Assembly (NCBI GenBank): GCA_047967505.1
Contig: CM106538.1
Length of the DNA stretch: 64,000 nucleotides
Direction: 5' to 3' (one strand)
Origin: Dipteris shenzhenensis
Taxonomy: Eukaryota
The notes under the pieces are model-generated. The model was not told the DNA's origin, ran no database searches, and was given only the letters and a program-made list of their open reading frames with translations. Below are positions 1 through 13,851 of the stretch, in pieces (position 1 is the first letter of the stretch; each line of letters begins with the position of its first letter). The translations under genes and the position numbers were made by a program.

Positions 1-385
1 AGTCTTGTATCTAGGTCCTAGGTTTTCACTGAGTTCATCAGTTTGGAAGGTGCATTGCACCTTGGTCTTATATCTCCATTTTCAAGAATAAAGTGAGCCT
101 GGATAAGGGGGGGGGGGCGTCTTGGCCCCTCAATCATATTGCAATTTCCAATGATGTCACTTTGTGTTTAAGCTGTATAAGTCTTAATTCCAGCTTAATT
201 GCAAACTCTTAAGTTCAAGTATATGTGTTTGGCAACTCGCAATCATTTCATTCAAACGCCTCTGCAAAATCCGTTGTCTGAATTGATAGAAAGCACCGAG
301 TAGTTTACAGTGTGTGTGTTCGATTCCTAGGAATTGCTTCGGATGAGACAACTTGGCTCCTTGGCATTGTTGCTATGAAGTCAAA

Positions 386-387
<2 letters not shown>

Positions 388-422
<35 letters not shown>
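388..422. repeat. (CT)n microsatellite
   Basis: Perfect CT dinucleotide run. Similar runs lie at about 2907-2935 and 9449-9475. Confidence 0.95.
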
Positions 423-426
<4 letters not shown>

Positions 427-595
427 GGCAGACTGCCATGCATGCAGCACCCTTTTGGGGAGTGACCTCTCGGCGACAAACTGGAGCAAGCTGCAAGTGA
501 TTATGGGGTCTAGGAAGATTTCAAGTAAGCCCTATGTCCCTCACCAAATAGTACATGCAGAGTTCGCCATGACACTACTTTAGATTGATGCCATC
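423..595 (+). mobile_element. RTEX-type LINE ORF2 fragment
   Basis: Translates to VRQTAMHAAPFWG and LQVIMGSRKISSKPYVPHQIVHAEFAM, closely matching the copy at 48867-49050. Confidence 0.8.
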
Positions 596-2690
596 AGTCA
601 TGGGCCCAGGCATAGTAGAGAGAGTGTTTCTCAGCTTATAGACTCTGATGGAGTTTTGCAGTCGGATCCAAATAGTCGGATCCAAATGGAGGTCATGCGA
701 AAAGCTACAGATTTTTATGCTTCCCTTTTCTCAGCACATCTTAGTAGCAAGGCCACAGATGATGCCAGACATGTCATATGGCAGTGTATTCCTATGTTGT
801 TGAAACCAAATATGAGAGTCTCTCTTGATGCACCTTTCACCAACATAGAGCTCAAGTTTGCGTTTCTTACCCTCAATAAGGGGAAGTGCCCAGGTTCAGA
901 CGGGCTTACACCCTCTCTTTTCCTAACCTTTTGGGATATGAGAATCACATCACCTCAGCTCTTGCAGGGTGTTTGGGACTACGGTGAGATGCTTGACTCA
1001 CTTACAAGGGATCTCATACATCTAATCCCAAAAGGGGGGTGCAAAAATTAAGTGTCACAACGGAGACCTATCACAATTTTGGGCACTTGCTATATAATCT
1101 TGGCAAAAGCAATCAGCCTGCGTTTGCATCCTATACTTCCAAATCTTATCCATGATATGCAGACGGGATTTGTTCATGGCAAAAGCATTTTTTATGATAT
1201 TTTCTCTTTTTGGGAAGCTTTGGGCCATGCAGAGTGGACAAAAACTAGCCATTCTTCTCTTGGACTTTGAAAAATCCTATGACAGGGTAGATTGGGATTT
1301 CTTGGAGGGCACCCTTTATCATTTCAGATTTTCAGATGCATGGATCAAAGGGGTTTCAGCCTTGTACAGATCAGCCCACAGCCAGGTGCTTATCGGAGGG
1401 GTCAGGGGAGACAGATTTCAGATTTCCAAATCAGTCAGTCAGGGATGCCCTCTTGCACCTTTTCTTTTCCTTGTGGCTGAGGCTATGAGCATTTTTCTTA
1501 GATCTCGAGCTGACAATCTTGAGCTCAGACTACCGCTTAGACAAGAGGAGGACCTCGTTGATTGTGAGCTAGCAGATGACATTACTATTTTCTTGGAGGC
1601 CTCCTTGCAGACTCTCACTTCCTTTAGGGCAGCCTTAGACTTGTTTTGTATTGCAGCAGGTGCTCACATTAATTGGCACAAGTCCAATGGTTTTTGGATC
1701 AATGATGATGACACTCCGGACTAGGGGGCTGATTTGGGCTTCACTTGGACACAGAAGGGTTGATATCTAGGATGCCAAGTCGGGTTGGGTATCTCCTCTT
1801 CGCAATAGTTTGCTTCGGTGTTGGAGAGCATTAGGAGGAAACTCCTCTTTTGGAGTTCAGCCAGGTTGGACCTTGCATCCAGGGTGCAGGTCATTAACCA
1901 GGTTTTGCTGGCCACGGCTTGGTATGTTTGCTCTTGTTGGTGCAGCTTCAAGGATTGCATCACTCAGCTCATAAGGCCTAAAAGGAATTTTTTATGGCGT
2001 GGGCTAGTTGGCATAGCAGACACTATTGCTAGGGTGGTGTGGGAGACATTGATCCTTTCGACGCAGGAGGGGAGCCATCATAGACCCAGATTTGCAGTGT
2101 AAGGTCTTGCTTTGCAAGTTTGTGGTTAAAGGTCTTATGCCTGGGGATAAGCCTTGGAAAAAAAAATTAATTCATTGCATCCATCCTTGCTGCCCCTCCT
2201 CAGGTGGAGATTGGATGGACAGCACCAGATAGATTTTCACTTCAGCCCGTCTCAGATCTCCTACCTCCCCGCTTATGGTCGCTATTCTGAAAGCTTGGGC
2301 CAGCTTCATAAGTACCCTTCGAAGAGTTCCTCCCTCCTCTCTCGAAGAGATTGATAGGCAGCCTATCATGTGGAATGACACTAGCATGGTAGGCAGCTTG
2401 GTTTGTCTCATTATATTCAGTGGTCCACGTGGGAGAAGAGGCTTCCAAAAGATCGTCAACAGCAATTGTTCAGTCACCTCTGAGGAAGTACAAGGAGGAT
2501 ACTTCGGATAGATGCATCCTTATATACCTTTGTAAGACTAGAATAAGTCCAATCATACAAATTTAGATTTTTTGTTGTTCTAAAGATAAAAAATCTACAC
2601 ATAAAATAAAAGAGAATGTGAAAGAGAAGAAAAAAGAGGTAAACAAAAACTTTTAAGAAAAACAAAAGGAAGACATACTTAGCAAGCAAA

Positions 2691-2783
2691 GCAACACTTA
2701 TGTCGTCATCAGTGCCCAACCATAAGCAGCTATACTGGGTTTCTAAAGACCCGCGGAGTCTCTTGGGCAAACCCAGTGCTTAC
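2691..2783 (-). ncRNA. Candidate structured RNA (hammerhead-like core in non-canonical order) in the PLE 3' region
   Basis: Two perfect 7-bp crossing helices (ACTGGGT/ACCCAGT, TGCCCAA/TTGGGCA), directly abutted by GAA(A) and CTGATGA, plus two hairpins. Confidence 0.45.
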
Positions 2784-2903
2784 TAAAATACGTCAAATAA
2801 ACAAAAGAGAAAGAGAACAAAAAATAAAGAAGAAAGGAAGCAAGTGACTAAGCAAAAATAAACAAGCAAGTTAAGAAACAAAATCTTCCAAAAAATTGGA
2901 ATA

Positions 2904-2939
<36 letters not shown>

Positions 2940-3082
2940 ACTCTCACTTTCACTCTCACTCTTATTTCAAACATAAAAAGCTAAATGGTCCTTTACACTT
3001 TTGTATTGTTTCCTATAAAGAGTCAAAAATACATTTCTAACTTAGAAAGCACAAGCATACTCAAACAAACTCTCTTTTGAAA

Positions 3083-3750
3083 CTAAAAGAAAAACGGGCT
3101 ATTCAGCTCCCCGCTTTTTGTTTTCAGCTTATGTTCAATCATTCTAAACATGCCTAAGGCCGATACACCAAAGATAAAAGACTTCATATCTAAGATTGTG
3201 CGTACTTTTTTCATTATTTTCCTTGGATTATACCTCTTGTGTAATAGTAAAGTGATCAAATTACTACATTGAGTGATAAAAGACTCCTTAGTTGTACAAA
3301 GGCGGGAAAATCTATGGAATTGGGAAGAAATGACTCCATATTTTGCCAAATTAGAAATGTTTGAGTCAATGTGAGGCATTTTTATAATGTGTAAATCACT
3401 ATATTCAGGTTGTTCGTGTTTATTGTATATATCAACCTCTAATCCTATGGTAGATTGACAAATTCTAAGATCTAAGAAAACACAAGAATCCCCTCTTGAA
3501 GTGCAGTTCAGTTCACAAGAGTCACGAGGATACATTCCTTCTCCAAAAGCACTAGCGTCTTTATACATAAAGTCTTGAAAGTTAGGAACATCTGGTACAA
3601 ATAAATCATCTATAAAACGCCTAACTTGGCTGGGCAGGTATTGATAGAAATAAGACATTGCATAAACTCAAATTCATAAGTGAAAAGATAAAAGTTTGCT
3701 AAAAAGACGGCACAATTAGTGCCCATGGGGATTCCTATGATTTGTCGAAA
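3083..3750 (-). pseudogene. PLE reverse transcriptase, C-terminal half with one frameshift near 3630
   Basis: From 3750 it reads FRQIIGIPMGTNCAVFLANFYLFTYEFEFMQ. After a frameshift come RRFIDDLF, FLDLRI, DIYNK and the thumb motif MPHIDSNISNLAKYGVISSQFHRFSRLCT. The ORF stops with no C-terminal GIY-YIG domain. Confidence 0.88.
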
Positions 3751-4125
3751 GATGACAGGCTTGTAGTTTGTTCACAGTCGATGGGGGCTTTTTCGAGAAC
3801 AGGTATTCCTCTTCAGGTCATTGCTTTTCTAGGAGCACAGGAAGATGCCTTGGTCTTCTTTTGGGCATGCCTTTTCAACCCGTAAGGATCATAGGTTATG
3901 TGGAACGGGGTAAGGACTCTGCTTGGCATATAGATCCGAGCCCTCGTCTTTCTTTCTCGGGTTCATGGAGGATGTGGCTCTATGGAGGAGTCCCCATAAA
4001 GTATCTTTAGTGGGACCCCAGAGAGTGGGAATGGATTGTTGCAGGGAACCAAGAGAAGAGTCTCCCATTCTTTGGTTACATGGTCAATAATGCTAGGGGG
4101 TTCCAAATCAATTGTAGAGGTTGGA

Positions 4126-5442
4126 AAGAAAAAGAAAGAAAAAAATTTTATTAGAGTCTTCGAAAGACAGATGGGTCTATGAAATTGAAAGAAAACCTGA
4201 TACGAATCACAGTAAGGGTGGAGCTACTGAAACAAACATCATCACTCGTGCAGAATCCTAAGTCTGATCATACATAATCAAATACATCTGGATGTAACAA
4301 TGAAAAGAAAAGGACTGGAGCGGAGCGGAATCCTCCGTATGTCATGTCGCCCTGACTGATGCATAGCCGGTGATGGGACGCTGGCGCCCGTCAAGGAGTG
4401 CCGTGCATCTCGGTCTCTTGGACGAGGCTCGACGCAAGACTAGAGCCACCGTGACTCCCGTGGGACATATCCCGGGTCTAAACAATGACGGGAGGTCTCC
4501 CAGAGTGATCTGTGTGTTCCCTCGACGTCTCATGTGTCGTGCTGCAGTCGTTGGGTTGGGGTCTCTGTCACGTCTGTGGCTAGAGATTGAACGATCAATG
4601 TCACTTGATGGGAAGAACTCTGTGATCCTGCTCTGAGAGGTGCCTGATGATGTGGCCAAGCCCCGTCGCCTAAGTAAGTACTCTCTGTGTCAGACCCCCT
4701 CGTGAATGAAGGCCGCGAGGCATCTCTGATCTGGGTAGGCGAGGAATCTGGAAAGGAACCTGGAGAGCTCTTTGAAGAGGCAGTGGTTAGTGACCTCGGA
4801 TCTCGTAGTACACTGGGCACCTGAAAATAAAATGCTTCTCTGACTCAACCTCCTGACAGTCGCACAATATGCATAAGTGATGCTCCCTAGGAATCCCCTC
4901 TGCTCTGCTGCTCTCTATGCGGAGGCGGTGTGATGATACCCGAAACTGTCCGATGGAGATCCGTAGTGAGTAAGGCATATGAAGCTCAGTGTACCCCGGT
5001 GGTGTGATGAATCCCTCCTCCGAAAAACGAAGACAGTAATCTCTATAGAAAGTCAGCTTCACTGGAAGCTCCCTCGGCTCCAACCAAGTCCTAAAGGTGT
5101 GTAGCTACAGGAGATCCTCTCGAATGACCTGGTTGGTGTGTGGCCCGATCGGGATGGTGGGTGGGAGTACCAGAGGGGCATCTAAACTGTACTGAAAAGG
5201 AGGTATCCTATCGATGTGGAACCCTAGTCTCACAAACCATCTGTGAGTCCGTGCATACCAGCATCGCTCATCTCCCTCTGCTGCCAACCTCAGGGAGGAA
5301 TCGAGAGCCAACCATGGCAACCTCTGTCTCCCTGATGTGCAGTCCCCATATGATCTAACCCGGTGTAGATATGTGATGGTCTGAAAGGCTGCATCTAGCT
5401 GGGGTGGAGAAGCACCAAACTCAGCCTGAATGATTTGCAGAA
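4126..5442 (-). mobile_element. 5'-truncated RTEX-type LINE inserted in L1
   Basis: Contains the AEFGASP motif and LRISIGQFRVSSHRLRIES..C..C..E.EKHFIFRCPVY. The 3' stem-loop, AATAAA and (TTTC)n-like tail are at about 4126-4180. Confidence 0.88.
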
Positions 5443-6847
5443 ACTCTTTTGGAGAGCTTTGGAAATCCCAAAGAATTAGAAGGATCACCTTAAGTTTTTG
5501 CCTTTGCATTCATGGAGGGATTGCAGTGAACAGTTGGAGATCCAGGTTTGGGGCTGACTCCACTTGTCCTAGGTGCTTGTCTAAGGAGGAGTCGGTCTAT
5601 CATTGCTTATGGGACTGCAGGCATGCGAGAGTCATATGGATAGGGGCTGCCACGATCAGTGGCTTGGCTCTCTTTGTCAGGACCTCAAATCTTCTATGAG
5701 TGGTAGGATGCTTCATGGGCCATCTCCATACGACAACACCTAGTCGAGCCTTGCTCATTGGAGGATGTGCCTATCTCCCGCTATAGACCAGTACATGCTG
5801 ATGTGGATTCTGCTTGGGAGATACTGGCTAGTATTACAGCTTGGAAGTTTTGGAGGGCTAGATGCACAGAGGCCTTAGATGGATCTCATGTCCACCCTTC
5901 CCACACTTTGGTCAATATTTGGGCTGACACCATTCACACATTGATGGCTAGATGGGCGAGCATGCAGGGATCTTCTCGAGTAGCCTATGCCAGGAGGGTT
6001 ATATTCCTTACGGAATGGAGGGGGCCCCCCTTTTTCTCAAAGACTACAGTAGGGTTGAGGTGGCATTTTCAGCCTCAATCTTGGTTTCTTTCTAGCTCTT
6101 TCTGAGTTTTTATTTATTCCTTTAGAGTATTTATTTTCCTCATACCCATCATGATGTATTTTTGCTTTGAGCTTGCTCACGCGGGTTTCTTTCATACTTA
6201 ATAAAAGTCTTTTTCATGAGATTGATGAAGAATTGACGGTAATACTTCTGAGATTTTGTAGAGAACAAAAAGCTAAGAAATCAGAGTTTAGGGAAACATG
6301 GACAGTTATGGACAGCAAAAGGATTTAGTAGTCAGGGTTTATACACGTCAAGAAAGACCTAGAACCAGGGTTAGAGGAGAGACAAAAGAGGTGGTACCTA
6401 GGGAATATGAACAGAATTAAAATAAAACTAACCAAGGCTTAGAAGAGCCGTACAAATGAGTTTTTTTGAGACGGAATGCTTCAGAAGTGATGAAGTAAAT
6501 AGTTCGAGAAAGGAGAATGAAAGTCAACCAGAATTATAAAGGTATGGAGTGAAAAAACCCACACAAAAACTCTGACTCACACACTTTGTAGATAACAGCA
6601 AAAAACCACAAAAGGAGGCAACAAAATGGTGAGCAGAGGCTGAGAGAGGGCTCGGGACTGCTGCCAAAACGAAACGCGACCTGCACACAGCACAAAATGC
6701 AGGACGGGGGAGGCTGTACAGCAGACATGAGCCTATAGGTTATCTTGTGACTGATGTAGTGACACCACACCAGCACTCTTGAAACCTCTGACCTGCAAGC
6801 AAACACAAGAACTCACCAAACATGAAGAATCTGAGCAGGTTCAACCA

Positions 6848-7264
6848 TGACACGTACAGGATACCATCCCAAATTAGGAGATGTTCCCCTCGAGCCACGA
6901 GCTGAGTTGCTGGCACGAACTCCCAACCAGATCCTGACCAGCCTCATGTCCCATACGACCAGGTGGCGCCTGGAGGCCTTGGATCTGCTACTGGCCTTGG
7001 GCTACGCTAAGATGCAGGCGTGCGTCCACGACTCAAATAGACCTAGCACTAGGAAACTTGCTCCCATCAACTCTGTGAAAACGGAACCTCTGGGCCCGTT
7101 TTATAGGCTTGGCCCCAATGCGCCAAAAATAGCGAAGATCAGAATCTCGTACCCTTGCCACTCAACCCGAGAATCAAGCTTGCCTAGCCCTAAGTCTCCC
7201 CAAGCTACCTGAGCTAGTCTTGTGTACCCCAATACATGTCAGATACTAATCCGTGCACATGACA
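6848..7264 (-). repeat. 3' LTR of the partial Gypsy element (about 417 bp)
   Basis: Imperfect terminal inverted repeats TGACACGTAC / GCACATGACA and a CCTATAAAA TATA box on the minus strand near 7100. The left boundary is inferred from the inverted repeat only. Confidence 0.65.
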
Positions 7265-8770
7265 TACTTCCCCTCCTTTAAGAACTCACTCCTGAGTTCA
7301 CAAGAAAACCCAGGAATGTCCTCTGGAGGTTAGGTAATGTCTCCCATGTTGCGTCCTCCTCAAGACGATCCTTCCACTTGATCTTGTATTCCGTGATAGT
7401 TCTATTTCTGATCTGTCTTTCACGAAATTCAAGAATACTCTTAGGTTCATGTGAAATAAAATATAAATCATTAACTTCTATTATTTCTTAAGGAGAAACA
7501 AGCTGATCATCAGCACCCAGTAACTCTTTCAGTCTACTAACATGAAACATTGTATGTACTTTTACATCAGGAGGCAATTCTAGTTTATATGCAACTAGTC
7601 CAATTCTTTCAATAATCTTGAATGGACTGCAATATCAAGGGGATAATTTCGAAACCAAATCAGTAATTAGGCTCTTGGATTCCTTGGGAATAGGTAAATA
7701 TACCATCGTCCCTTTAGAGTACTCTCTAGGTGAATAATGTCTATAAGCATAAAATCTATCCCGATCTTGGGCACTTCTAATAGACTCCTTGGCAAACTGT
7801 AATATTTCTTGCATGTTTTGCAAGAATGTCCTTGCAGCATTATGTGGAATTCCCTTGAACCCAACCATAACTGGTGACTTAGGTTGAAACCCGTACATAA
7901 GCATAAAAGGATTGTAACTAGTACTCGAATGCATTGCACTGTTGTAAGCAAATTTGATCATGGGGAGATAATCTTCCCATGAAGACTGTCTCTTAGAAAC
8001 ATATGCCCGAAGCATGTCTTCAACCAATTGGTTAACCTTCTCTGTACTGCCATCAGATTGTGAATGATCTGAGGAACTCATACTTCGAGCAGTTTCCAAC
8101 TTCTTAAAAACAAGTGTCCAAAAGTTACTTGTAAACTTAGAGTCCCTGTCATTGACTATGCGGGAAGGCAAACCATATAGCTTAAACAATTGGTCCACAA
8201 ACTCATGAGCTAACTGAACAGCTGATATGGTCGATCTAGTAGGTAAGAATCTAGCCATCTTTGTCAAATGGTCAACTATGACCCAAATGGAGTCATGACC
8301 CTTGCACGTTCTAGGAAAACCTGTAATAAAGTCCATGGAAATACTTTTCCATTTATTACCAAGGATTTGCAATGGTCCGCGCTTCTAAGGCGTTCTGCCT
8401 TAGTAAGCTGACAAACTCGGCAACCTACCACATAGCTTTCAATAAATGCACGCATCTTAGGCCAATAAAAGGTATGTTTCACAAGAGACAAGAGTCCAAT
8501 GTATACCTGGATGTCTAGCACTAGGAGCATCATGAAACTCCCACAGAATCTTGGATCGAAGATCCGAAACATCGGGCACACATATCTTTCCATTCCAGAA
8601 CAGCAAGCCATTCCTAACCATCCACTGACCTCCTGCCGCCTGTAAGCCAAAGCATCAACATCGTGATAGAAGCTTGAATCCCTTGGAGTTGCTGTGTCAA
8701 CCCCATTGGATTCGCATTAACCAGCTCAAGCAATGTTGTTGCATCAACCCCATTTAATTTGCGTCGAGAG
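6848..8770 (-). mobile_element. Partial Gypsy (chromodomain) LTR retrotransposon: end of RNase H, integrase, chromodomain, PPT and 3' LTR
   Basis: Integrase motifs HDAPSARHPG, C..C, ISMDFITGFP, DRDSKFTSNFW and chromodomain EYKIKWKDRLEEDATWE. PPT (TAAAGGAGGGGAAGTA) abuts TGTCA at 7264. Confidence 0.9.
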
Positions 8771-9827
8771 CGGTGGTGAATTCACTGAAGGCAGTCTTCG
8801 CAATCAATCATTGTAGATACCCTGGTCGTCCCCTCCGTGGTAATCCATGTCGTGAGTTATTTAGAGTACCTACATTGTAGTCTGAAAATCTGGAAACGTA
8901 GTCGGCCATACATTACTTTAAGATTGAGAGTCTTTTGATTTCGATTTAAATTCCTTGATGAGCGCTACGCCCTCACAGTACATTGCCCATTTTCAATCCA
9001 TCCTAGCAGCCTTGACCTTAGCTAATTCTGTTGCCTTCTAGTTCCATTAATCTCATGTGATGATATGATATGATTGTATTAAAGTCCGCTTGAGACCCTT
9101 CAAGATCATGGCACTGGACACCACTATTAAATACATTGTAGATCTTAGACCAAAATTTTGCGAAAGAAGAAATCCATACAATATTTTGTTATACTACGAG
9201 TATGTACCCACTGCCTGGCTACGTCAAGGACTTTTTTGCGATGCCTTAATACTTCCTTAGGCAGGCTGCCAGTTTCTTAGCTGGCTATTCCAAGAGGGTT
9301 TTAAGGCTGGCCTCATTGTTGCTGTATTTTTGCCTGATATGCATGTATACTTGGCAATGGAGGAGCACATGTTCCTCCATTGCCCACTGCTCAATCCATC
9401 TGACCCCTTCTCTATGCCTTCCAATGGTTTTGTGGCCTCCATTGCCCTAGAGAGAGAGAGAGAGAGAGAGAGAGAACAAACAAACAGAAAACAAAAACAA
9501 ACCAAAAAACCAAAACCAAGGAAAAAGGAAGACATGGAACAAAGCTAAAAGTAGAAAAAGAAGCTACTTAGTAAAGCTTTGGTTCTGCTCTCATCGATAC
9601 CCACACATAAGCTTATTTGAATGCAATCCACAAACCACTTACACATTTTGCATCCCAAAGAAAAAAACCTGCCAAATGTGTTCCACCCATGCACATGTAG
9701 CAAACAATATGAGATCCCTCTGACTTCATTGTCATTCAACAAGATCTTCTCATCAGAGGTATTTTAACCATAAAACTTTGTTACTTAAAAAAAAAAAAAC
9801 AGAAAACAAGCCATAGTGGTGTCCTAC

Positions 9828-9976
9828 CAGAGTTTTTTCAGGTCTTGCTTTCTGTTGGGATTGTTTTCTTCCATCTTCAGATTCGTTTCCATCTTGTGGA
9901 ACATTTGCTATTCCATGTGGTGCAGGTGCACGTTCTCCATCATCATCCAAATCAAAACCAAAATCTTCCAAAGTGC
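9828..9976 (-). CDS. BIN4: BIN4/MIDGET exon (149 bp): (G)TLEDFGFDLDDDGERAPAPHG...KARPEKTL
   Basis: CAG acceptor and GTAGG donor. The phase-1 start joins exon 18939-19014 to give MVEGTLEDFGFD, matching the BIN4 motif (recalled as EAETMVEGTLEGF.F.SDDE). Confidence 0.85.
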
Positions 9977-10956
9977 CTGTTTTTAAATCAGACTGAAGTA
10001 AGATAATCTTCTGGCTTCAACCAAGTTCAAGATATCATTGTCAATCTATAGAAGACTTGAGATGCCAAGAAACTTGAAAATTTAAAGAAATCAATATAGT
10101 TAGATTCACAATATTGTAGTCCCTCTATCTCAAGACTCAAGTACCATATAGAATTGTGAAAATTTCTATAAAAAACAAAACGGATCCTTTCAACCACAAG
10201 AACAGAGCTCATAACTAGATCATGCAGAGTTCTTGATATGTGATTTGCATAGCTTAAGGTCTCACAAGCCATGGAGAATATCACCCCAAGAAAACTATAA
10301 AACATGAGAAGTATATACCTAGATGAATCCAGGAACATTCCCAAACTCATCCTCTAAAAAGATATGTCAACAAACTATAAAACATGAGAAGTATATATAT
10401 TTCAACAAACTTGAAATCATATGTCATGTGTGCAGCAGCAAAGTAGGACCACTTGCTCACAAAAAAAACTTATAACAGTCAGCCCCACTCTATGGTGGTC
10501 AGATTTACAGGACGGGAGTTGGCAAGAACAGAAAAGTAAGACTTGGCCTATGAAACCTGCAAAACTGAATTTGCTGCTCCCTTTGACCCTCTCATTTTCA
10601 TGCTCCATGTGAGGGCGTGTTTGTGCTGTCAGAGTTTTTCATGTCATCCTCTTTGCATTTTATCATGTCTTTGTTATAGAAATATGGAAAGCTCTCCAGG
10701 TAAAAAATACAGTTGGAACTAGATATACAATCACGCAAAAGCCATCTCAGTGAATATGAAGTTTAATGAACCCAATGGACAATAATGCAAAGGCAACCAA
10801 AATTGTCTTTCTGATAGACTTTGGATTTTTCATTCTGTGTTGCTCAACAGATATATCTTAATTGCAACGTTGACCATAATATATAAAGAAATTTAAAAGC
10901 AATTTACACTCTGCCCCTCATGCCCCTCCCCATGGGGCCACCTCCCTACATCCTCT

Positions 10957-13851
10957 TGTTGAAAATGGGAGAGGGTGAGAGACACATGATTGGAGACAAG
11001 AGCTGAGGCACAATAGCTGATGTTGATAGTTGGTAGATTCGTAGCAAGTACATGGCCTCATTTATAGGCTGGCCTTATCTTCCCATACTGATACCTCATA
11101 GATGAGGTCACACACAAGAGAATCTAGATCCTATAATCTAGGGGAGGAATCACACCTACCACATGAGGTGGCACAAGTGGCCTCAAGACTCTTCACACTC
11201 ACACAACTATAGGACACTCCTAGGACTCTAGGACCACGCACATTAGGACCACACACACTAGGACTCCGATTCCAACAAACCCCCCTTTGGAGCTAGGGTG
11301 AGAGACTATGACATCATCCAGACTGTGCATCCTAGGCAATCTCAGAGGCTAACAGCTGAGCATAATTCAGAGGTTGAACCAAGGACTCTCATGGCTTAGG
11401 TGTCAACGTGATAAGAGACTCAAATCTGAGCATGGATGCATGACCAACTCATAGGTCTAGGGAGTACACCAACATCCTGGAACTCGGCCAGGCCTGATAA
11501 AGGAAAGACATAACAACCCCCCTGTCTCCTAACTGGGTACATGGAAATAAGTGGAGCCTTTTATAGGACAAGGCACACAAAAATGACAAATTATTACATC
11601 ATTTTAGGGAGACTACCCAAGTGACTCTAGAAAGCCCACTCTTCATCTATCACCTCATGGAGGGATAGACCAGAAACAGCAGCAGTGCAGGCTTGTTCCT
11701 CAGGTCCAGAAGGTGTAGCTTCATCGTCTTCGTCCTCGCTCTGCTCCGCAACTAGATTGGCATGTTCTTTGGCTTGTACCTTTGCCATTTTCTTGCAGCA
11801 ACGATCCCCTCGATGGCCAAGTTTCTGACAATAATTACATTTAAGAGGTTTTCCATTCTTCTTGGGCTTATTCTTGAGAAAGAATGCTTTGCCAGATTCG
11901 AAGGAAGATTCTGCTTTCTCTGTAAGCCTACGGTCCTCATCAATGAGATGAGCTACCATATCCTTAAAGCTCATATTGCGGCTGACTCTTAGGACAGCAA
12001 GGATCTCATTGTACTTGGAAATGTCTTCAATACTGGAAGTACAACAACTTGATCATCATCTTCAACAATGGCTCGGATGGCAAATAATTGTTGGAGAATT
12101 GACCCAAGATTGCTCAAGTGTTCATTGAGGGTTTCAGTTTCCTTCATCTTGAGCTTGAAGAGTTTTTGTTTGAGAAATACTTTGGAATTATTGATCTTAT
12201 TTCCAAACAAATTCTCTAACTTTTCCCAAACGTCATTTGCTCTCTTATCAAAATCCACATGGTGGATAAGGTTGTCAGCTAAAGCTAGGCCAATGATAGC
12301 CATTGCTTTATCATTTTGGTTCTCCCACCAACTGATTCTAGCATCATCACCTTGGGGTTTTGGCTCCTTGCCATTGGTGATATTCCATATGCCTTCTCGC
12401 ATAAGAAGAAGCCGGAGTTTTGTCTGCCAAGTTGGGAAATTGCTCCCTGAGATTTCTTGATGAACGAGGAGTTTTTTATGCTATCCATTGGTGGGAAGGT
12501 CTTAGCTGTTATTACAGCCAGTGTCTAAATCCCTTACAATGTTTACTCAGATTTCAAAAAAGACCCAAATTTTACATGGTAGAAGCTTCAATTATGCCAA
12601 AGGAAGACACAGAACAGAAAAGCCCTAAATTTTAGGGTTAGGTTTGCTGCAAAATTAGGGTTTGCAGAGAATTGGGGCTTTTCTAAATTTCTGACAGAAG
12701 AGTTCTTGTTCAACAGTTGGGAACCCTCACATCATGAAAACACCCAAAAAATTCGAGAAGTTGAGCATAAATTGTAAAGGGGCGAAAATTAGGGTTTCGG
12801 GCAGGAAATTGGTCACGAACAGGACCTGTGTCAGTCAAAATAACGACTGAATTGCTGCAGTATTATCTTCATATGTTGGTGGAGAGGAATCAATTGGAGA
12901 TCTTTAGAATGGCGAGCTTCGACACAGATAGAGCAGGGTTCAAGTCGGTCTGAATAGAGATAGAGCAGGGCTGCTACTGCATCAAGGCATCCTCAAGAGA
13001 CAGGGAGGCAACAAGAAATCGATGAGCCAAATCATGGACAACAGATCGTGAGGTTTATGGGCCCACCCCGCTTCCGCTGCGTTGACGTGCGAGTCGATGG
13101 CCATGGCCCTCAGGTCGTCAGTCACCGGTACATACGAGACGCCGCCAAGTCATCGCCTTGTTACAAGACCGGAGCTGTCGCAGGTCTAGCTACGTGGACA
13201 GTAGGAGAAGTTGCGTGCGCAACTAGAAGCAACGTGGGTGTGCGGGCACTCAGCAGGCTCGAGTAGGTAGAAGCTCTGCAGTATGGCGGGCAGAATGGCG
13301 CACGAGCGCGCGTGGGCAGATTGCGAGGGAGGCCGACTCTGGTGGTGCATGCAGCGTAAGTAGAGCGTAAGTAGAGGCAGCAGAAGAGTGGCGCAAGTGT
13401 GGCAGCGCAGCTCCTTGTTGATGACGCTCATCACCTCAAGGAGAGGAGGAAATCACGAGTAGCTACAAGAGGAGCTTACGAGGAGAGGAATGGGCAGGAC
13501 GCTTCAAGGTGGCTCTGATACCAACTGTTGAAAATGGGAGAGGGTGAGAGACACATGATTGGAGACAAGAGCTGAGGCACAATAGCTGATGTTGATAGTT
13601 GGTAGATTCGTAGCAAGTACATGGCCTCATTTATAGGCTGGGCAAGCCTTATCTTCCCATACTGATACCTCATAGATGAGGTCACACACAAGAGAATCTA
13701 GATCCTATAATCTAGGGGAGGAATCACACCTACCACATGAGGTGGCACAAGTGGCCTCAAGACTCTTCACACTTACACAACTATAGGACACTCCTAGGAC
13801 TCTAGGACCACGCACACTAGGACCACACACACTAGGACTCCGATTCCAACA
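10957..13851 (-). mobile_element. Gag-only non-autonomous Copia-type LTR retrotransposon (TR-GAG-like), element 1
   Basis: LTRs 10957-11277 and 13526-13851 (TGTTG..CAACA) differ by about 2 substitutions and one 5-bp indel. TSD CCTCT, tRNA-iMet PBS TGGTATCAGAGCC at 13511-13523, PPT at about 11278-11290. No pol in the 2.25-kb interior. Confidence 0.95.
11627..12488 (-). pseudogene. Copia-type Gag with two frameshifts
   Basis: G.NFPTWQTKL..LLMREGIW, KAMAIIGLALADNLIHHV..VWEKLENLF, LKQKLFKLKMKE and zinc knuckle CNYCQKLGHRGDRC. Ends DEEWAF*. Confidence 0.88.

What the first reader, a model, noticed from the sequence alone, without database searches (positions are those of the whole stretch)
2691..2783. 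Hammerhead-ribozyme core in a scrambled, pseudoknotted order in the 3' region of a Penelope-like element
Seen, on the element's sense (minus) strand: GTAAGC-ACTGGGT-T-TGCCCAA-GAGACTCCGCGGGTCTTTA-GAA-ACCCAGT-ATAGCTGCTTATGG-TTGGGCA-CTGATGA-CGACA-TAAG-TGTTG. ACTGGGT/ACCCAGT forms a stem III starting at the last A of GAAA. A single unpaired U gives a GUU triplet. TGCCCAA/TTGGGCA forms stem I and is followed immediately by CUGAUGA and a stem-II-like hairpin. Established: PLEs carry hammerheads in their terminal repeats, and types I-III are circular permutations of the strand order A-B-C. Here the order is C-B-A, with the chain broken between stem II and GAAA, so it is not a circular permutation and standard descriptors would miss it. 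Inference: a new-topology or dimer-assembled self-cleaving RNA, or a switch, since TAAGCA/TGCTTA extends stem III and probably competes with the pseudoknot. Caveats: single decayed copy, GUU is a weak triplet, and the geometry is untested.
Basis: partly seen in the sequence, partly recalled or inferred. Interest (0 to 1): 0.85.

Follow-up and report, generated by a model that had tools for sequence, protein, structure and literature searches.

The report
Permuted hammerhead ribozyme in a retroelement tail
The 3' untranslated tail of a Penelope-like jumping gene carries all the parts of a hammerhead self-cutting RNA in a rearranged order, first described in 2023 from environmental RNA of unknown hosts, which gives that rare form a DNA-encoded eukaryotic host.

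Summary
The motif is in the window as described, on the minus strand at 2777..2696, and it is not chance. A strict descriptor finds it once in the window. In 300 dinucleotide shuffles there was 1 equally good hit, and 0 hits that also had the extra helix.

It lies about 310 nt after the stop codon of a 5'-truncated reverse transcriptase. That enzyme's distant relatives carry an N-terminal GIY-YIG nuclease plus RT, the Naiad/Chlamys type of Penelope-like element.

A second family, about 50% identical in protein and from metagenome contigs, has the same architecture in its 3' UTR with different helix sequences. All 24 comparable pairs are kept, and 9 of them are changed on both sides.

The block order is cleavage site, then GAAA, then CUGAUGA. 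This is the "type SGC" non-circular hammerhead permutation of Eckert et al. 2023, including its fourth helix tying stems I and II together. The topology is therefore not new.

Stem II here is only a mismatch plus 2 bp, and a 17-20 nt hairpin sits in the linker.

What is new is the host, a DNA-encoded eukaryotic retroelement, and the variant anatomy. Cleavage itself is untested.

The parts
2771..2777 (-). Stem III, 5' strand (ACUGGGU); part of block S
   Evidence: It pairs with 2734-2740. The family equivalent is GGCUGAGU/ACUCAGUU, with 96.7% of cells paired and 3 pairs showing double changes.
2770..2770 (-). H17 (U). Predicted cleavage is between 2770 and 2769 (GUU triplet).
   Evidence: positioned by analogy with hammerhead numbering. 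In the related family the triplet is GUC in 40 of 41 descriptor hits.
2763..2769 (-). Stem I, 5' strand (UGCCCAA)
   Evidence: It pairs with 2713-2719. The pairing is a pseudoknot relative to stem III and the clamp.
2746..2762 (-). Hairpin X (GAGAC-UCCGCGG-GUCUU) inserted between stem I and the GAAA block
   Evidence: RNAfold extends it to 8 bp. The family has GUUGC-UUCCGGAAUU-GCAGC at the same place, also with 0 nt after stem I.
2740..2745 (-). UA + GAAA: G12 A13 A14 and A15.1. U2746, U2745 and A2744 form the candidate 3' strand of stem II.
   Evidence: In the family, GAAA is intact in 42 of 53 distinct copies, from the per-position counts: G12 changed in 9, A13 in 1, A15.1 in 2, with one copy counted twice.
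2734..2740 (-). Stem III, 3' strand (ACCCAGU)
2721..2727 (-). Clamp helix, 5' strand (GCUUAUG). Linker G2720 follows.
Evidence: Position 2720 reads as the other base in nearly all related contigs.
2713..2719 (-). Stem I, 3' strand (UUGGGCA)
2706..2712 (-). CUGAUGA core box (C3-A9)
   Evidence: It is a single copy in the window.
2703..2705 (-). CGA: the 3 nt between the core and the clamp, candidate 5' strand of stem II
   Evidence: The family has AGU, also exactly 3 nt.
2696..2702 (-). Clamp helix, 3' strand (CAUAAGU)
   Evidence: The family has CCCACUG/CAGUGGG, with 93.5% of cells paired.
3086..3753 (-). 5'-truncated reverse-transcriptase fragment with one frameshift near 3630. It contains IPMGTNCAVFLANFYL and RFIDDLF. 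The stop codon is at 3083-3085.
   Evidence: tblastn with P0002 and P0016 gave 63-83% identity.
2520..3082 (-). 3' untranslated region of the element. The end near 2520 is inferred only. It holds a (GA)n/(GAGUGA)n microsatellite at about 2900-2965.
   Evidence: The end is inferred from resemblance to the family terminus ...UUCUUAUGAAAGAUA. It was not tested.

Best explanation
This is a non-circularly permuted hammerhead-type ribozyme of the type-SGC kind, encoded on the sense strand of the 3' UTR of a Naiad/Chlamys-lineage Penelope-like retroelement.

The RNA folds into two hairpin domains.
- Domain 1 is closed by stem III. Its loop holds the cleavage-site nucleotide, the 5' strand of stem I, an inserted hairpin X, and (U)A-GAA.
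- Domain 2 is closed by a 7-bp 'clamp'. Its loop holds the 3' strand of stem I, CUGAUGA and 3 further nucleotides.

The two loops pair with each other through stem I (7 bp) and a minimal stem II (one mismatch plus 2 bp). This assembles the usual three-way hammerhead core.

The predicted reaction is Mg2+-dependent self-cleavage after U2770 (after GUC in the related family). It would cut read-through or tandem transcripts of the element about 250-320 nt before its 3' end.

Shown here: sequence anatomy, departure from chance, conservation with compensatory changes in a second family, and match of topology to type SGC.

Inferred: catalysis, the stem II pairing, and the biological role.
For: 1. Every invariant hammerhead core nucleotide is present at the helix junctions in the window: CUGAUGA, GAA, the A15.1-U16.1 pair, and H=U.

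2. Chance is excluded in practice. There is 1 real hit. In 300 shuffles there was 1 hit with I>=7 and III>=7, and 0 with a clamp.

3. A second family has the same layout.
- One search found 244 relatives and kept the best 80. Identity to the window RT is 43-59%. There is no nucleotide similarity to the window by blastn.
- The order of blocks is the same. The spacings match: 0 nt between stem I and X, 3 nt between CUGAUGA and the clamp, 1-2 nt linkers.
- The helix sequences differ. Of 24 register-matched pairs (III 7, I 5, clamp 7, X 5), all 24 pair in both families. 9 differ on both sides, 3 on one side, 12 are identical (read).

4. Within the family (53 distinct sequences), 95.4% of cells are paired. 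When partners are slid, 32-50% pair. 15 cells carry double changes, against 5.0 +/- 1.8 in shuffles (0 of 500 reach it).

5. The strict descriptor run on the 80 loci (400,232 bases, both strands) gave 42 hits. 41 are at the homologous 3' UTR site in 41 loci, and 37 of those have a clamp of at least 6 bp. One hit lies elsewhere.

6. The core is intact in 37 of 53 distinct copies.

7. Topology equals the published, experimentally cleaving type SGC. This includes a helix joining the distal ends of stems I and II, and a 0-44 nt connector from stem III (PMC10085705, sections read).

8. The motif bins 2692-2779 are the most deeply covered in contigs of 4 runs, and few variants are listed there.

9. 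The proposed fold is energetically close to the nested optimum.
- Window: -18.2 kcal/mol for the nested part plus -10.1 for the stem I duplex, against an MFE of -30.2.
- Family: -28.8 plus -5.4, against -36.5.
Against: - Stem II is the weak point. Only 3 nt lie between CUGAUGA and the clamp. The position next to the core never pairs (A.A in the family in 53 of 53 copies; C.A in the window). The other two positions pair in 48 of 53 and 53 of 53 copies, with no double change. They overlap the base of hairpin X.
- The linker between stems I and II is a 17-20 nt hairpin, where type SGC typically has 3 nt.
- A covariance model built from the family alone does not retrieve the window motif significantly. 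There was no hit with default filters. With filters off it scored 8.3 bits, E=4, rank 5 of 15.
- Nested-fold z-scores are unremarkable: -1.92 for the window and -0.39 for the family.
- Only two independent families were available, and within-family variation is small. Many changes are C-to-U type and keep G.U pairs.
- GUU is a weaker cleavage triplet than GUC.
- There are no raw RNA reads, so no cleavage ends could be examined (laid contigs only).
- Elements in the loci end about 317 nt downstream of the site. The RNAs that were copied into DNA were therefore not terminated there.
Confidence: 0.65

Rival explanations
1. It is a conserved structured 3' UTR element that keeps a hammerhead-derived core but no longer cleaves, or never did. 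It would serve, for example, as a recognition fold for the element's reverse transcriptase during target-primed reverse transcription.
For: - Stem II is almost absent.
- Genomic copies extend about 317 nt past the predicted site.
- The whole 3' UTR of the family is about 90% conserved, so the motif does not stand out from it.
- Craig et al. 2021 (PMC8557442, passages read) note that the function of hammerheads in these elements is unclear, and that most Naiad/Chlamys elements proliferate without canonical ones.
Against: - No known reason other than catalysis keeps CUGAUGA, GAAA and a U-H step exactly at the junctions of covarying helices in two families with unrelated helix sequences.
- Published type-SGC RNAs with this topology cleave.
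Confidence: 0.15
2. The RNA is active only in an assembled or switched state. Two copies, from tandem units or two transcripts, would pair through the palindromic loop of hairpin X. Alternatively, competing helices would gate the active fold.
For: - The family loop is UUCCGGAAUU, an 8-nt palindrome in a 10-nt loop. It is exact in 16 of 53 copies, and most others are CpG-decay variants.
- The window loop holds CCGCGG.
- Animal Penelope-like hammerheads are thought to act as dimers through palindromic helix III or loop 3 (PMC4209133, passages read).
- In the window, UAAGCA/UGCUUA extends stem III and overlaps the clamp strand. This extension is in the RNAfold optimum.
- In the family, an upstream hairpin AGCCA/UGGCU overlaps stem III.
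Against: - Dimerisation through X does not supply the missing stem II strand.
- In the window, CCGCGG can largely be absorbed into an 8-bp stem with a 3-nt loop, so its palindrome may be incidental.
- No tandem or second copy exists in the window, nor within 3 kb upstream in the loci.
Confidence: 0.12
3. Stem II is the local hairpin CGACA-UAAG-UGUUG after CUGAUGA, with the chain broken between stem II and GAAA. This would be a wholly new topology.
For: The hairpin can be drawn in the window, at -2.0 kcal/mol.
Against: - The related family has no equivalent local hairpin. Its best candidate is 4 bp and conflicts with the 7-bp GC-rich clamp.
- The clamp is conserved, with 4 of 7 pairs changed on both sides between the two families.
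- A deep contig variant at 2695 breaks the hairpin but not the clamp.
- RNAfold does not choose the hairpin.
Confidence: 0.04
4. It is a chance assembly, or a rearranged wreck of a canonical hammerhead in one decayed copy.
For: The element copy in the window is 5'-truncated and frameshifted.
Against: - Shuffle control.
- The same layout in 41 of 80 related loci.
- High copy number of the motif in four runs.
Confidence: 0.02

Closest known systems
Type-SGC hammerhead ribozymes (HRIMA-1 motif and type-SGC variants; Eckert, Friedrich, Weinberg & Weinberg, NAR 2023, PMC10085705)
   Same: - Block order is S (stem III strand, cleavage site, stem I strand), then G (GAAA), then C (stem I strand, CUGAnGA).
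- All core nucleotides are present.
- Stems I and III are pseudoknotted.
- There is a fourth helix flanking block C that ties the distal ends of stems I and II together.
- A variable connector (here 6 or about 30 nt; published range 0-44) runs from stem III to that helix.
   Different: - Published examples came from metatranscriptomes and metagenomes. The paper states that none were found in genomes of known organisms (passage read). Here the motif is DNA-encoded in a eukaryotic retroelement.
- The linker from stem I to stem II is a 17-20 nt hairpin, where about 3 nt is typical.
- Stem II is reduced to a mismatch plus 2 bp.
- The published figures and supplements could not be seen, so the published stem II length is unknown to me.
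Type I and minimal hammerheads of Penelope-like elements (Cervera & de la Pena 2014, PMC4209133)
   Same: - The host is a Penelope-like element, and the motif lies in its terminal, non-coding part on the sense strand.
- There is an extra nucleotide between A9 and a G at the start of stem II (CUGAUGA-A-G and CUGAUGA-C-G here). That paper lists this as a conserved trait (passage read).
- A palindromic element is present.
   Different: - Those are circular-permutation type I motifs with stem II of 4-6 bp and a tiny palindromic helix III.
- Here stem III is 7-8 bp, the order is non-circular, and the palindrome sits in an inserted hairpin.
Naiad/Chlamys and EN-less 'PLE-X' elements (Craig et al. 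2021, PMC8557442)
   Same: - The RT's distant relatives carry an N-terminal GIY-YIG nuclease.
- A CxC-type motif (GCACFC) and a DK motif lie upstream of the RT in the 803-aa ORF of L004.
- No nuclease domain was detected in that ORF.
- The protein ends right after the RT thumb.
   Different: - That paper reports no canonical hammerheads in Naiad and most Chlamys elements, and canonical ones in PLE-X of Chara and Selaginella. The evidence is in its supplements, which I could not see.
- It mentions unexplained 'HHR_half_core' cases, where GAAA lies 35-50 nt from CUGANGA on either side.
- The permuted motif found here is not described there.
Ribozymes that process retrotransposon co-transcripts (HDV-like ribozymes of R2 and other non-LTR elements). 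Known to me from titles in a reference list and from recall.
   Same: A self-cleaving RNA inside a retroelement transcript that could free the element RNA from read-through or tandem transcripts.
   Different: It is a different ribozyme class. Those sit at the 5' end, whereas this one is in the 3' UTR.

Membership tests
Hammerhead ribozyme (any type) | CUGANGA box directly 3' of one strand of stem I | tested here: met
   Window 2712-2706 abuts 2719-2713. In the family, per-position departures are C3 in 4, G5 in 3 and G8 in 1 of 53 copies.
Hammerhead ribozyme (any type) | GAA followed by the A15.1-U16.1 pair opening stem III | tested here: met
   Window 2743-2740 with U2771. In the family the pair at columns 14-45 is U-A in 49 of 53 copies.
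Hammerhead ribozyme (any type) | Cleavage-site nucleotide H (not G) between stems III and I | tested here: met
   U2770. In the family, C in 40 and U in 1 of 41 descriptor hits.
Hammerhead ribozyme (any type) | Stems I and III supported by covariation | tested here: met
   stem III is 96.7% paired with 3 pairs showing double changes; stem I is 95.8% paired with 1. Between the families there is one double change in each. The support is modest.
Hammerhead ribozyme (any type) | Stem II flanked by A9 and G12 | tested here: inconclusive
   There is room for only 3 positions. The first never pairs. The other two pair in 48 of 53 and 53 of 53 copies, and as G.U and A-U in the window. There is no double change, and the pairs overlap hairpin X.
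Hammerhead ribozyme (any type) | Site-specific self-cleavage | not testable with these tools
   Only contigs could be laid, so no read ends were available.
Hammerhead types I, II and III (Rfam models) | Match to a curated covariance model | tested here: not met
   There were 0 gathering-score matches in the window. No hammerhead appeared among 7 matches at E<=10 in 1-12000, nor among 16 matches at E<=5 in 8 loci.
Type-SGC permuted hammerhead | 5'-to-3' order of block S, block G, block C | tested here: met
   compared with the definition in PMC10085705.
Type-SGC permuted hammerhead | Helix joining the distal ends of stems I and II (strands flanking block C) | tested here: met
   The window has GCUUAUG/CAUAAGU and the family CCCACUG/CAGUGGG. 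4 of 7 pairs differ on both sides between the families, and 93.5% of cells are paired within the family.
Type-SGC permuted hammerhead | Short (typically 3 nt) linker from stem I to stem II | tested here: not met
   A 17-20 nt hairpin occupies the linker in both families. The published screening tolerated insertions that fold into hairpins.
Penelope-like element, Naiad/Chlamys lineage | RT related to proteins with an N-terminal GIY-YIG nuclease and a C-terminal RT | tested here: met
   The L004 ORF hits P0019, P0022 and P0033 at E 1e-48 to 1e-33 with 25-28% identity. GIY-YIG lies at residues about 52-139 and RVT_1 at about 560-790. The window RT is 43-59% identical to the loci.
Penelope-like element, Naiad/Chlamys lineage | CxC motif upstream of the RT | tested here: inconclusive
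   GCACFC is present in the L004 ORF by eye. It was not aligned to reference elements. The window copy is truncated before that region.
Penelope-like element | Pseudo-LTR or partial tandem arrangement | tested here: not met
   There is no second copy of the 3' region in the window, nor within the 3 kb held upstream in the loci. Longer flanks were not available.

The most novel reading that the evidence does not exclude
The N-terminal-nuclease clade of Penelope-like elements (Naiad, Chlamys, PLE-X) is reported to lack hammerheads. In this reading it carries them in a hidden, non-circularly permuted form. That would explain the unexplained 'half-core' cases and make hammerheads universal in these elements.

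The form seen here would be a distinct five-helix variant. Two hairpin loops kiss to build the core. Stem II is reduced to 2 bp within a four-way arrangement of stem I, hairpin X, stem II and the clamp. A palindromic-loop hairpin lets two element RNAs pair and so controls cutting.
Probability: 0.25. Interest if true: 0.8.

Novelty: new variant of a known kind. Interest (0 to 1): 0.62.

Why it matters
Non-circular permutations of a structured RNA have so far been known only from environmental RNA of unknown hosts. The paper that described them states that none were found in genomes of known organisms.

A DNA-encoded example in a eukaryotic retroelement, present in many copies and in at least two diverged families, brings three things:
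- a host organism and a biological setting in which the form can be studied;
- a natural variant with an almost absent stem II and an inserted hairpin, which tests what the hammerhead core really needs;
- a reason why descriptor searches report 'no hammerhead' in a whole clade of Penelope-like elements.

Whether hammerheads are a universal feature of these elements thereby becomes directly testable.

Tried and rejected
- **Own genome.** None is held for this window.
- **Longer flanks of the metagenome records.** Not held.
- **Other collections.** Scans of viral and prokaryote contigs with the RT alignment found no relative.
- **Covariance model.** The model built from the family (R1) did not find the window motif. 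There was no hit with default filters. With filters off it scored 8.3 bits, E=4, rank 5 of 15. The model is dominated by one family's sequence (effective number 1.31), so I treat this as uninformative rather than as evidence against homology.
- **Pfam.** Nothing useful was found for the window ORF or the 803-aa L004 ORF. A PDB sequence search found nothing.
- **Sequencing runs.** No run holds more than 0.19 of the sampled words, and all four laid runs are contigs only. Transcription, RNA ends and cleavage could therefore not be examined.
  - Two contig break points fall at 2768 (X2) and 2769 (X5), next to the predicted cleavage site.
  - Seven other listed break points are scattered over 2735-2802, and 81 more loose ends were not shown. 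I do not count this.
- **A longer stem II.** I looked for one between the GAAA flank, or the loop of X, and the sequence after CUGAUGA. The family's CUUCC loop can pair with GGAAG after the clamp. The window has no equivalent, so this was rejected.
- **Second CTGAGGA.** The conserved one about 165 nt downstream in the loci is the loop of a CUUCC/GGAAG hairpin, not a second ribozyme.
- **Diverged partial copies.** Those in L021, L039 and L045 (about 600-860), L067 (2750-2950) and L033 (1150-1330) are too decayed to add covariation.
- **Paper PMC5785218** (dimeric Penelope-like hammerheads) is not held.
- **Supplements** of PMC10085705 and PMC8557442 were not seen. They may hold type-SGC variants from eukaryotic DNA, or the hammerheads reported for PLE-X elements.
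Full report
**1. The observation**

On the minus strand the window reads UAGUAAGC-ACUGGGU-U-UGCCCAA-GAGACUCCGCGGGUCUU-UA-GAA-ACCCAGU-AUAGCU-GCUUAUG-G-UUGGGCA-CUGAUGA-CGA-CAUAAGU-GUUG, from 2785 to 2692.
- ACUGGGU (2777-2771) pairs with ACCCAGU (2740-2734), which follows GAA directly.
- UGCCCAA (2769-2763) pairs with UUGGGCA (2719-2713), which abuts CUGAUGA (2712-2706).
- A single U (2770) separates the two 5' strands.

Rfam finds no hammerhead. There were 0 matches at gathering score in the whole window, and no hammerhead among 7 weak matches at E<=10 in 1-12000.

I wrote a descriptor for this order: CUGANGA; stem I of at least 5 bp; U16.1; H not G; GAAA; stem III of at least 6 bp; span at most 150.
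- It hits the real window once, with stem I 7 bp, stem III 7 bp and a flanking helix of 8 bp.
- In 300 dinucleotide shuffles of the window, both strands, there were 11 basic hits in 10 shuffles.
- Only 1 shuffle hit had both stems at least 7 bp, and none had a flanking helix of at least 6 bp.

**2. The surroundings**

Upstream on the same strand lies a reverse-transcriptase fragment at 3753-3086, with the stop codon at 3083-3085.
- It contains the motifs IPMGTNCAVFLANFYL and RFIDDLF.
- It has one frameshift near 3630 and is cut off at its 5' side.
- It is the only copy in the window.

A search with the 194-aa ORF found 9 proteins among 29 candidates, 48-81% identical. Those that reach the end stop at the same C-terminus, so the ORF ends here with no domain after the RT.

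The family is related to nuclease-bearing Penelope-like elements.
- An 803-aa ORF from a related locus (L004:1102-3510) has distant relatives of about 900 aa, at 25-29% identity and E down to 1e-48.
- Those relatives carry a GIY-YIG nuclease at residues about 52-139 and an RT at about 560-790.
- That permuted domain order defines the Naiad/Chlamys clade of Penelope-like elements (Craig et al. 2021, PMC8557442; abstract and passages read).
- The L004 ORF shows a CxC-type motif and a DK motif by eye, and no nuclease by Pfam. This resembles the nuclease-less 'PLE-X' families of that paper.
- The protein atlas gave RT / HTH_animal clusters as nearest neighbours, which I treat as a lead only.

**3. 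Related sequences**

The alignment of the RT tail found 244 relatives in metagenome contigs, and the best 80 were kept. They are 43-59% identical to the window protein.

Nearly all have a CTGANGA about 225 nt after the protein match.
- By blastn, 63 loci cover that region over at least 170 nt, giving 57 distinct sequences. The loci are 82-97% alike among themselves.
- None of them matches the window at nucleotide level, although the window stretch was in the database.

The majority reads GGCUGAGU-C-UUCCC-GUUGC-UUCCGGAAUU-GCAGC-A-GAA-ACUCAGUU-(30 nt with a small hairpin)-CCCACUG-UA-GGGAG-CUGAUGA-AGU-CAGUGGG. This is the same order of parts as in the window, with different helix sequences.

The spacings match too:
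- 0 nt between stem I and a hairpin, which I call X;
- 1-2 nt from X to GAA;
- 1-2 nt before the 3' strand of stem I;
- exactly 3 nt between CUGAUGA and a 7-nt strand that pairs back to the 7 nt just upstream of stem I. I call this helix the clamp.

I compared the two families in register over 24 pairs (stem III 7, stem I 5, clamp 7, X 5).
- All 24 pair in both families.
- 9 differ on both sides: stem III 1, stem I 1, clamp 4, X 3.
- 3 differ on one side, and 12 are identical (read).

Within the family I used 53 distinct sequences. One of the 54 distinct sequences, L015 with a 13-nt deletion over the cleavage site, was left out.
- 95.4% of cells are paired, against 32-50% when partners are slid.
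- 15 cells carry changes on both sides, against 5.0 +/- 1.8 in shuffles (0 of 500 reach it).

The strict descriptor run over all 80 loci (400,232 bases, both strands) gave 42 hits.
- 41 are at this site, in 41 loci, and 37 of those have the clamp.
- One hit lies elsewhere.
- The cleavage triplet is GUC in 40 of the 41.
- The eleven core positions and H are intact in 37 of the 53 distinct sequences. Most departures are G-to-A or C-to-U.

Rfam finds no canonical hammerhead in 8 of these loci (49,177 bases).

**4. What it is**

Eckert et al. 2023 (PMC10085705; sections 7, 13, 14, 15 and 18 read) divide the hammerhead into three blocks:
- S: stem III strand, cleavage site, stem I strand;
- G: stem II strand, GAAA, stem III strand;
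- C: stem I strand, CUGAnGA, stem II strand.

Types I, II and III are the orders CGS, GSC and SCG. The paper reports natural, experimentally cleaving 'type SGC' ribozymes.
- These have a fourth helix that joins the distal ends of stems I and II.
- A 0-44 nt connector runs from stem III to that helix.
- About 3 nt link stem I to stem II.

The window motif and the metagenome family have the order S-G-C, and both have that fourth helix (the clamp) and that connector (6 and about 30 nt).

**5. Where it differs from type SGC**

(a) The linker from stem I to stem II is a 17-20 nt hairpin, X.

(b) Stem II has room for only 3 positions.
- The one next to the core never pairs: A.A in 53 of 53 family sequences, C.A in the window.
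- The next two pair in 48 of 53 and 53 of 53 family sequences (as C-G, and as G.U, A-U or G-C). In the window they are G.U and A-U.
- They show no change on both sides, and they overlap the base of X.
- Read another way, there is one extra nucleotide after A9 followed by a G. Cervera and de la Pena 2014 list this as a conserved trait of Penelope-like hammerheads (PMC4209133, passage read).

- It is worth -2.0 kcal/mol, against -5.7 for the clamp.
- RNAfold does not choose it.
- The family has no counterpart.
- A deep contig variant at 2695 breaks it while sparing the clamp.

**6. Fold and energetics**

Without the pseudoknots the RNA forms two hairpin domains, one closed by stem III and one by the clamp. 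Stems I and II are then loop-loop pairings between the two domains.

The energies are as follows.
- Window: the nested part of this fold scores -18.2 kcal/mol and the stem I duplex -10.1, against a nested optimum of -30.2.
- Family: -28.8 and -5.4, against -36.5.

The proposed fold is thus close to, but not better than, alternatives.
This uses part of the clamp strand.
- In the family an upstream hairpin (AGCCA/UGGCU) overlaps stem III.

Whether these alternatives gate the ribozyme is open.

**7. Copies elsewhere**

No run holds more than 0.19 of the sampled words.

I laid contigs of four runs, coded as three organisms, at 80% likeness.
- The bins 2692-2779 are the most deeply covered in all four.
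- Few variants are listed inside the motif. The linker position 2720 reads as the other base in nearly all copies. A loop position of X (2752) varies in one run. Position 2695 varies, and there is a 6-nt deletion at 2718 in one deep contig.
- A further 44 variant rows were not shown.

The motif is therefore the conserved, multi-copy part of a family in several genomes. These data add no covariation, and since they are contigs they say nothing on transcription or RNA ends.

**8. How it most likely works**

The most likely reading is self-cleavage after U2770, by the hammerhead mechanism, in the element's sense transcript.

The family's copies stop being alike about 317 nt beyond the site, at ...UUCUUAUGAAAGAUA. 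The window has a similar string near 2520.

The ribozyme would therefore cut read-through or tandem transcripts inside the 3' UTR, as proposed for other Penelope-like elements. The RNAs that gave rise to the genomic copies were not ended at the site. The role is inferred, not shown.

**9. Against and open**

- The covariance model built from the family does not retrieve the window motif significantly.
- Only two independent families could be compared.
- Stem II is not established.
- Catalysis is untested.
- The supplements of both key papers could not be read.

**10. Novelty**

'Type-SGC' occurs in one paper of the searched library.
- Three papers hold 'non-circular permutation', 'hammerhead' and 'retrotransposon' together. 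I opened two of them, and neither links the permuted form to Penelope-like elements. The third was seen only as a search listing.
- Four papers since 2021 hold 'hammerhead', 'Chlamys' and 'Penelope-like', and three were listed. I opened two of these, and neither mentions a permuted form.
- Eckert et al. state that no such RNA was found in genomes of known organisms (passage read).
- Craig et al. report that Naiad and most Chlamys elements lack canonical hammerheads, and they mention unexplained half-cores.

I therefore rate this as a new variant of a known kind, in a new host setting.

Noticed in passing
window 2900-2965 (minus strand), also 388-422 and 9449-9475: A (GA)n / (GAGUGA)n microsatellite sits inside the element's 3' UTR, between the stop codon and the motif. 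Similar runs occur elsewhere in the window. Craig et al. note a microsatellite insertion bias for this clade.
   Followed up: no
L009 3617-3640 and equivalents (alignment): In the metagenome family a small hairpin (AGCCA-GUAGUA-UGGCU) lies just upstream and overlaps the 5' strand of stem III. One diverged copy (L036) keeps it through a change on both sides. It may be a competing fold.
   Followed up: partly
L009 3510-3540; window about 3083-3115: The last codons of the ORF encode a conserved SGEL-x-SP peptide. They form a G-rich/C-rich hairpin whose loop resembles the CUGAUGA block (GGGGAGCUGAAUAGCCC in the window). In the metagenome family the same stretch lies just after the stop codon, in another frame. 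Its meaning is unknown.
   Followed up: no
L004 3997-4031, L010 1004-1042; L021, L039 and L045 710-741; L067 2837-2866; L033 1198-1304: Isolated or decayed copies of the 30-40 nt clamp-plus-CUGAUGA block occur outside the main 3' UTR site. Two of them lie right after the element's 3' end, in otherwise unrelated sequence.
   Followed up: partly
L019 about 3477, L067 about 3510, L015 3644, L024 and L025 about 3685: These are deletion or truncation variants of the family. They lack blocks S and G (L019), block S and X (L067), 13 nt across the cleavage site (L015), or everything after block G (L024, L025).
   Followed up: no
L009 3886-3895 and equivalents: A second conserved CTGAGGA lies about 165 nt downstream of the motif. 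It is the loop of a CUUCC/GGAAG hairpin and has no other hammerhead parts.
   Followed up: yes
window 584-2102 (+), 4787-5509 (-), 7635-8716 (-): Other mobile-element remains surround the finding. There are RT-like ORFs of a LINE-type element and a weak zf-RVT match at 4787-5104. An integrase-like ORF is named by eye only.
   Followed up: no
window 2718 and 2695 (run X3): One very deep contig of a related genome carries a 6-nt deletion in the 3' strand of stem I together with the 2695 change. It may be an abundant inactive derivative.
   Followed up: no
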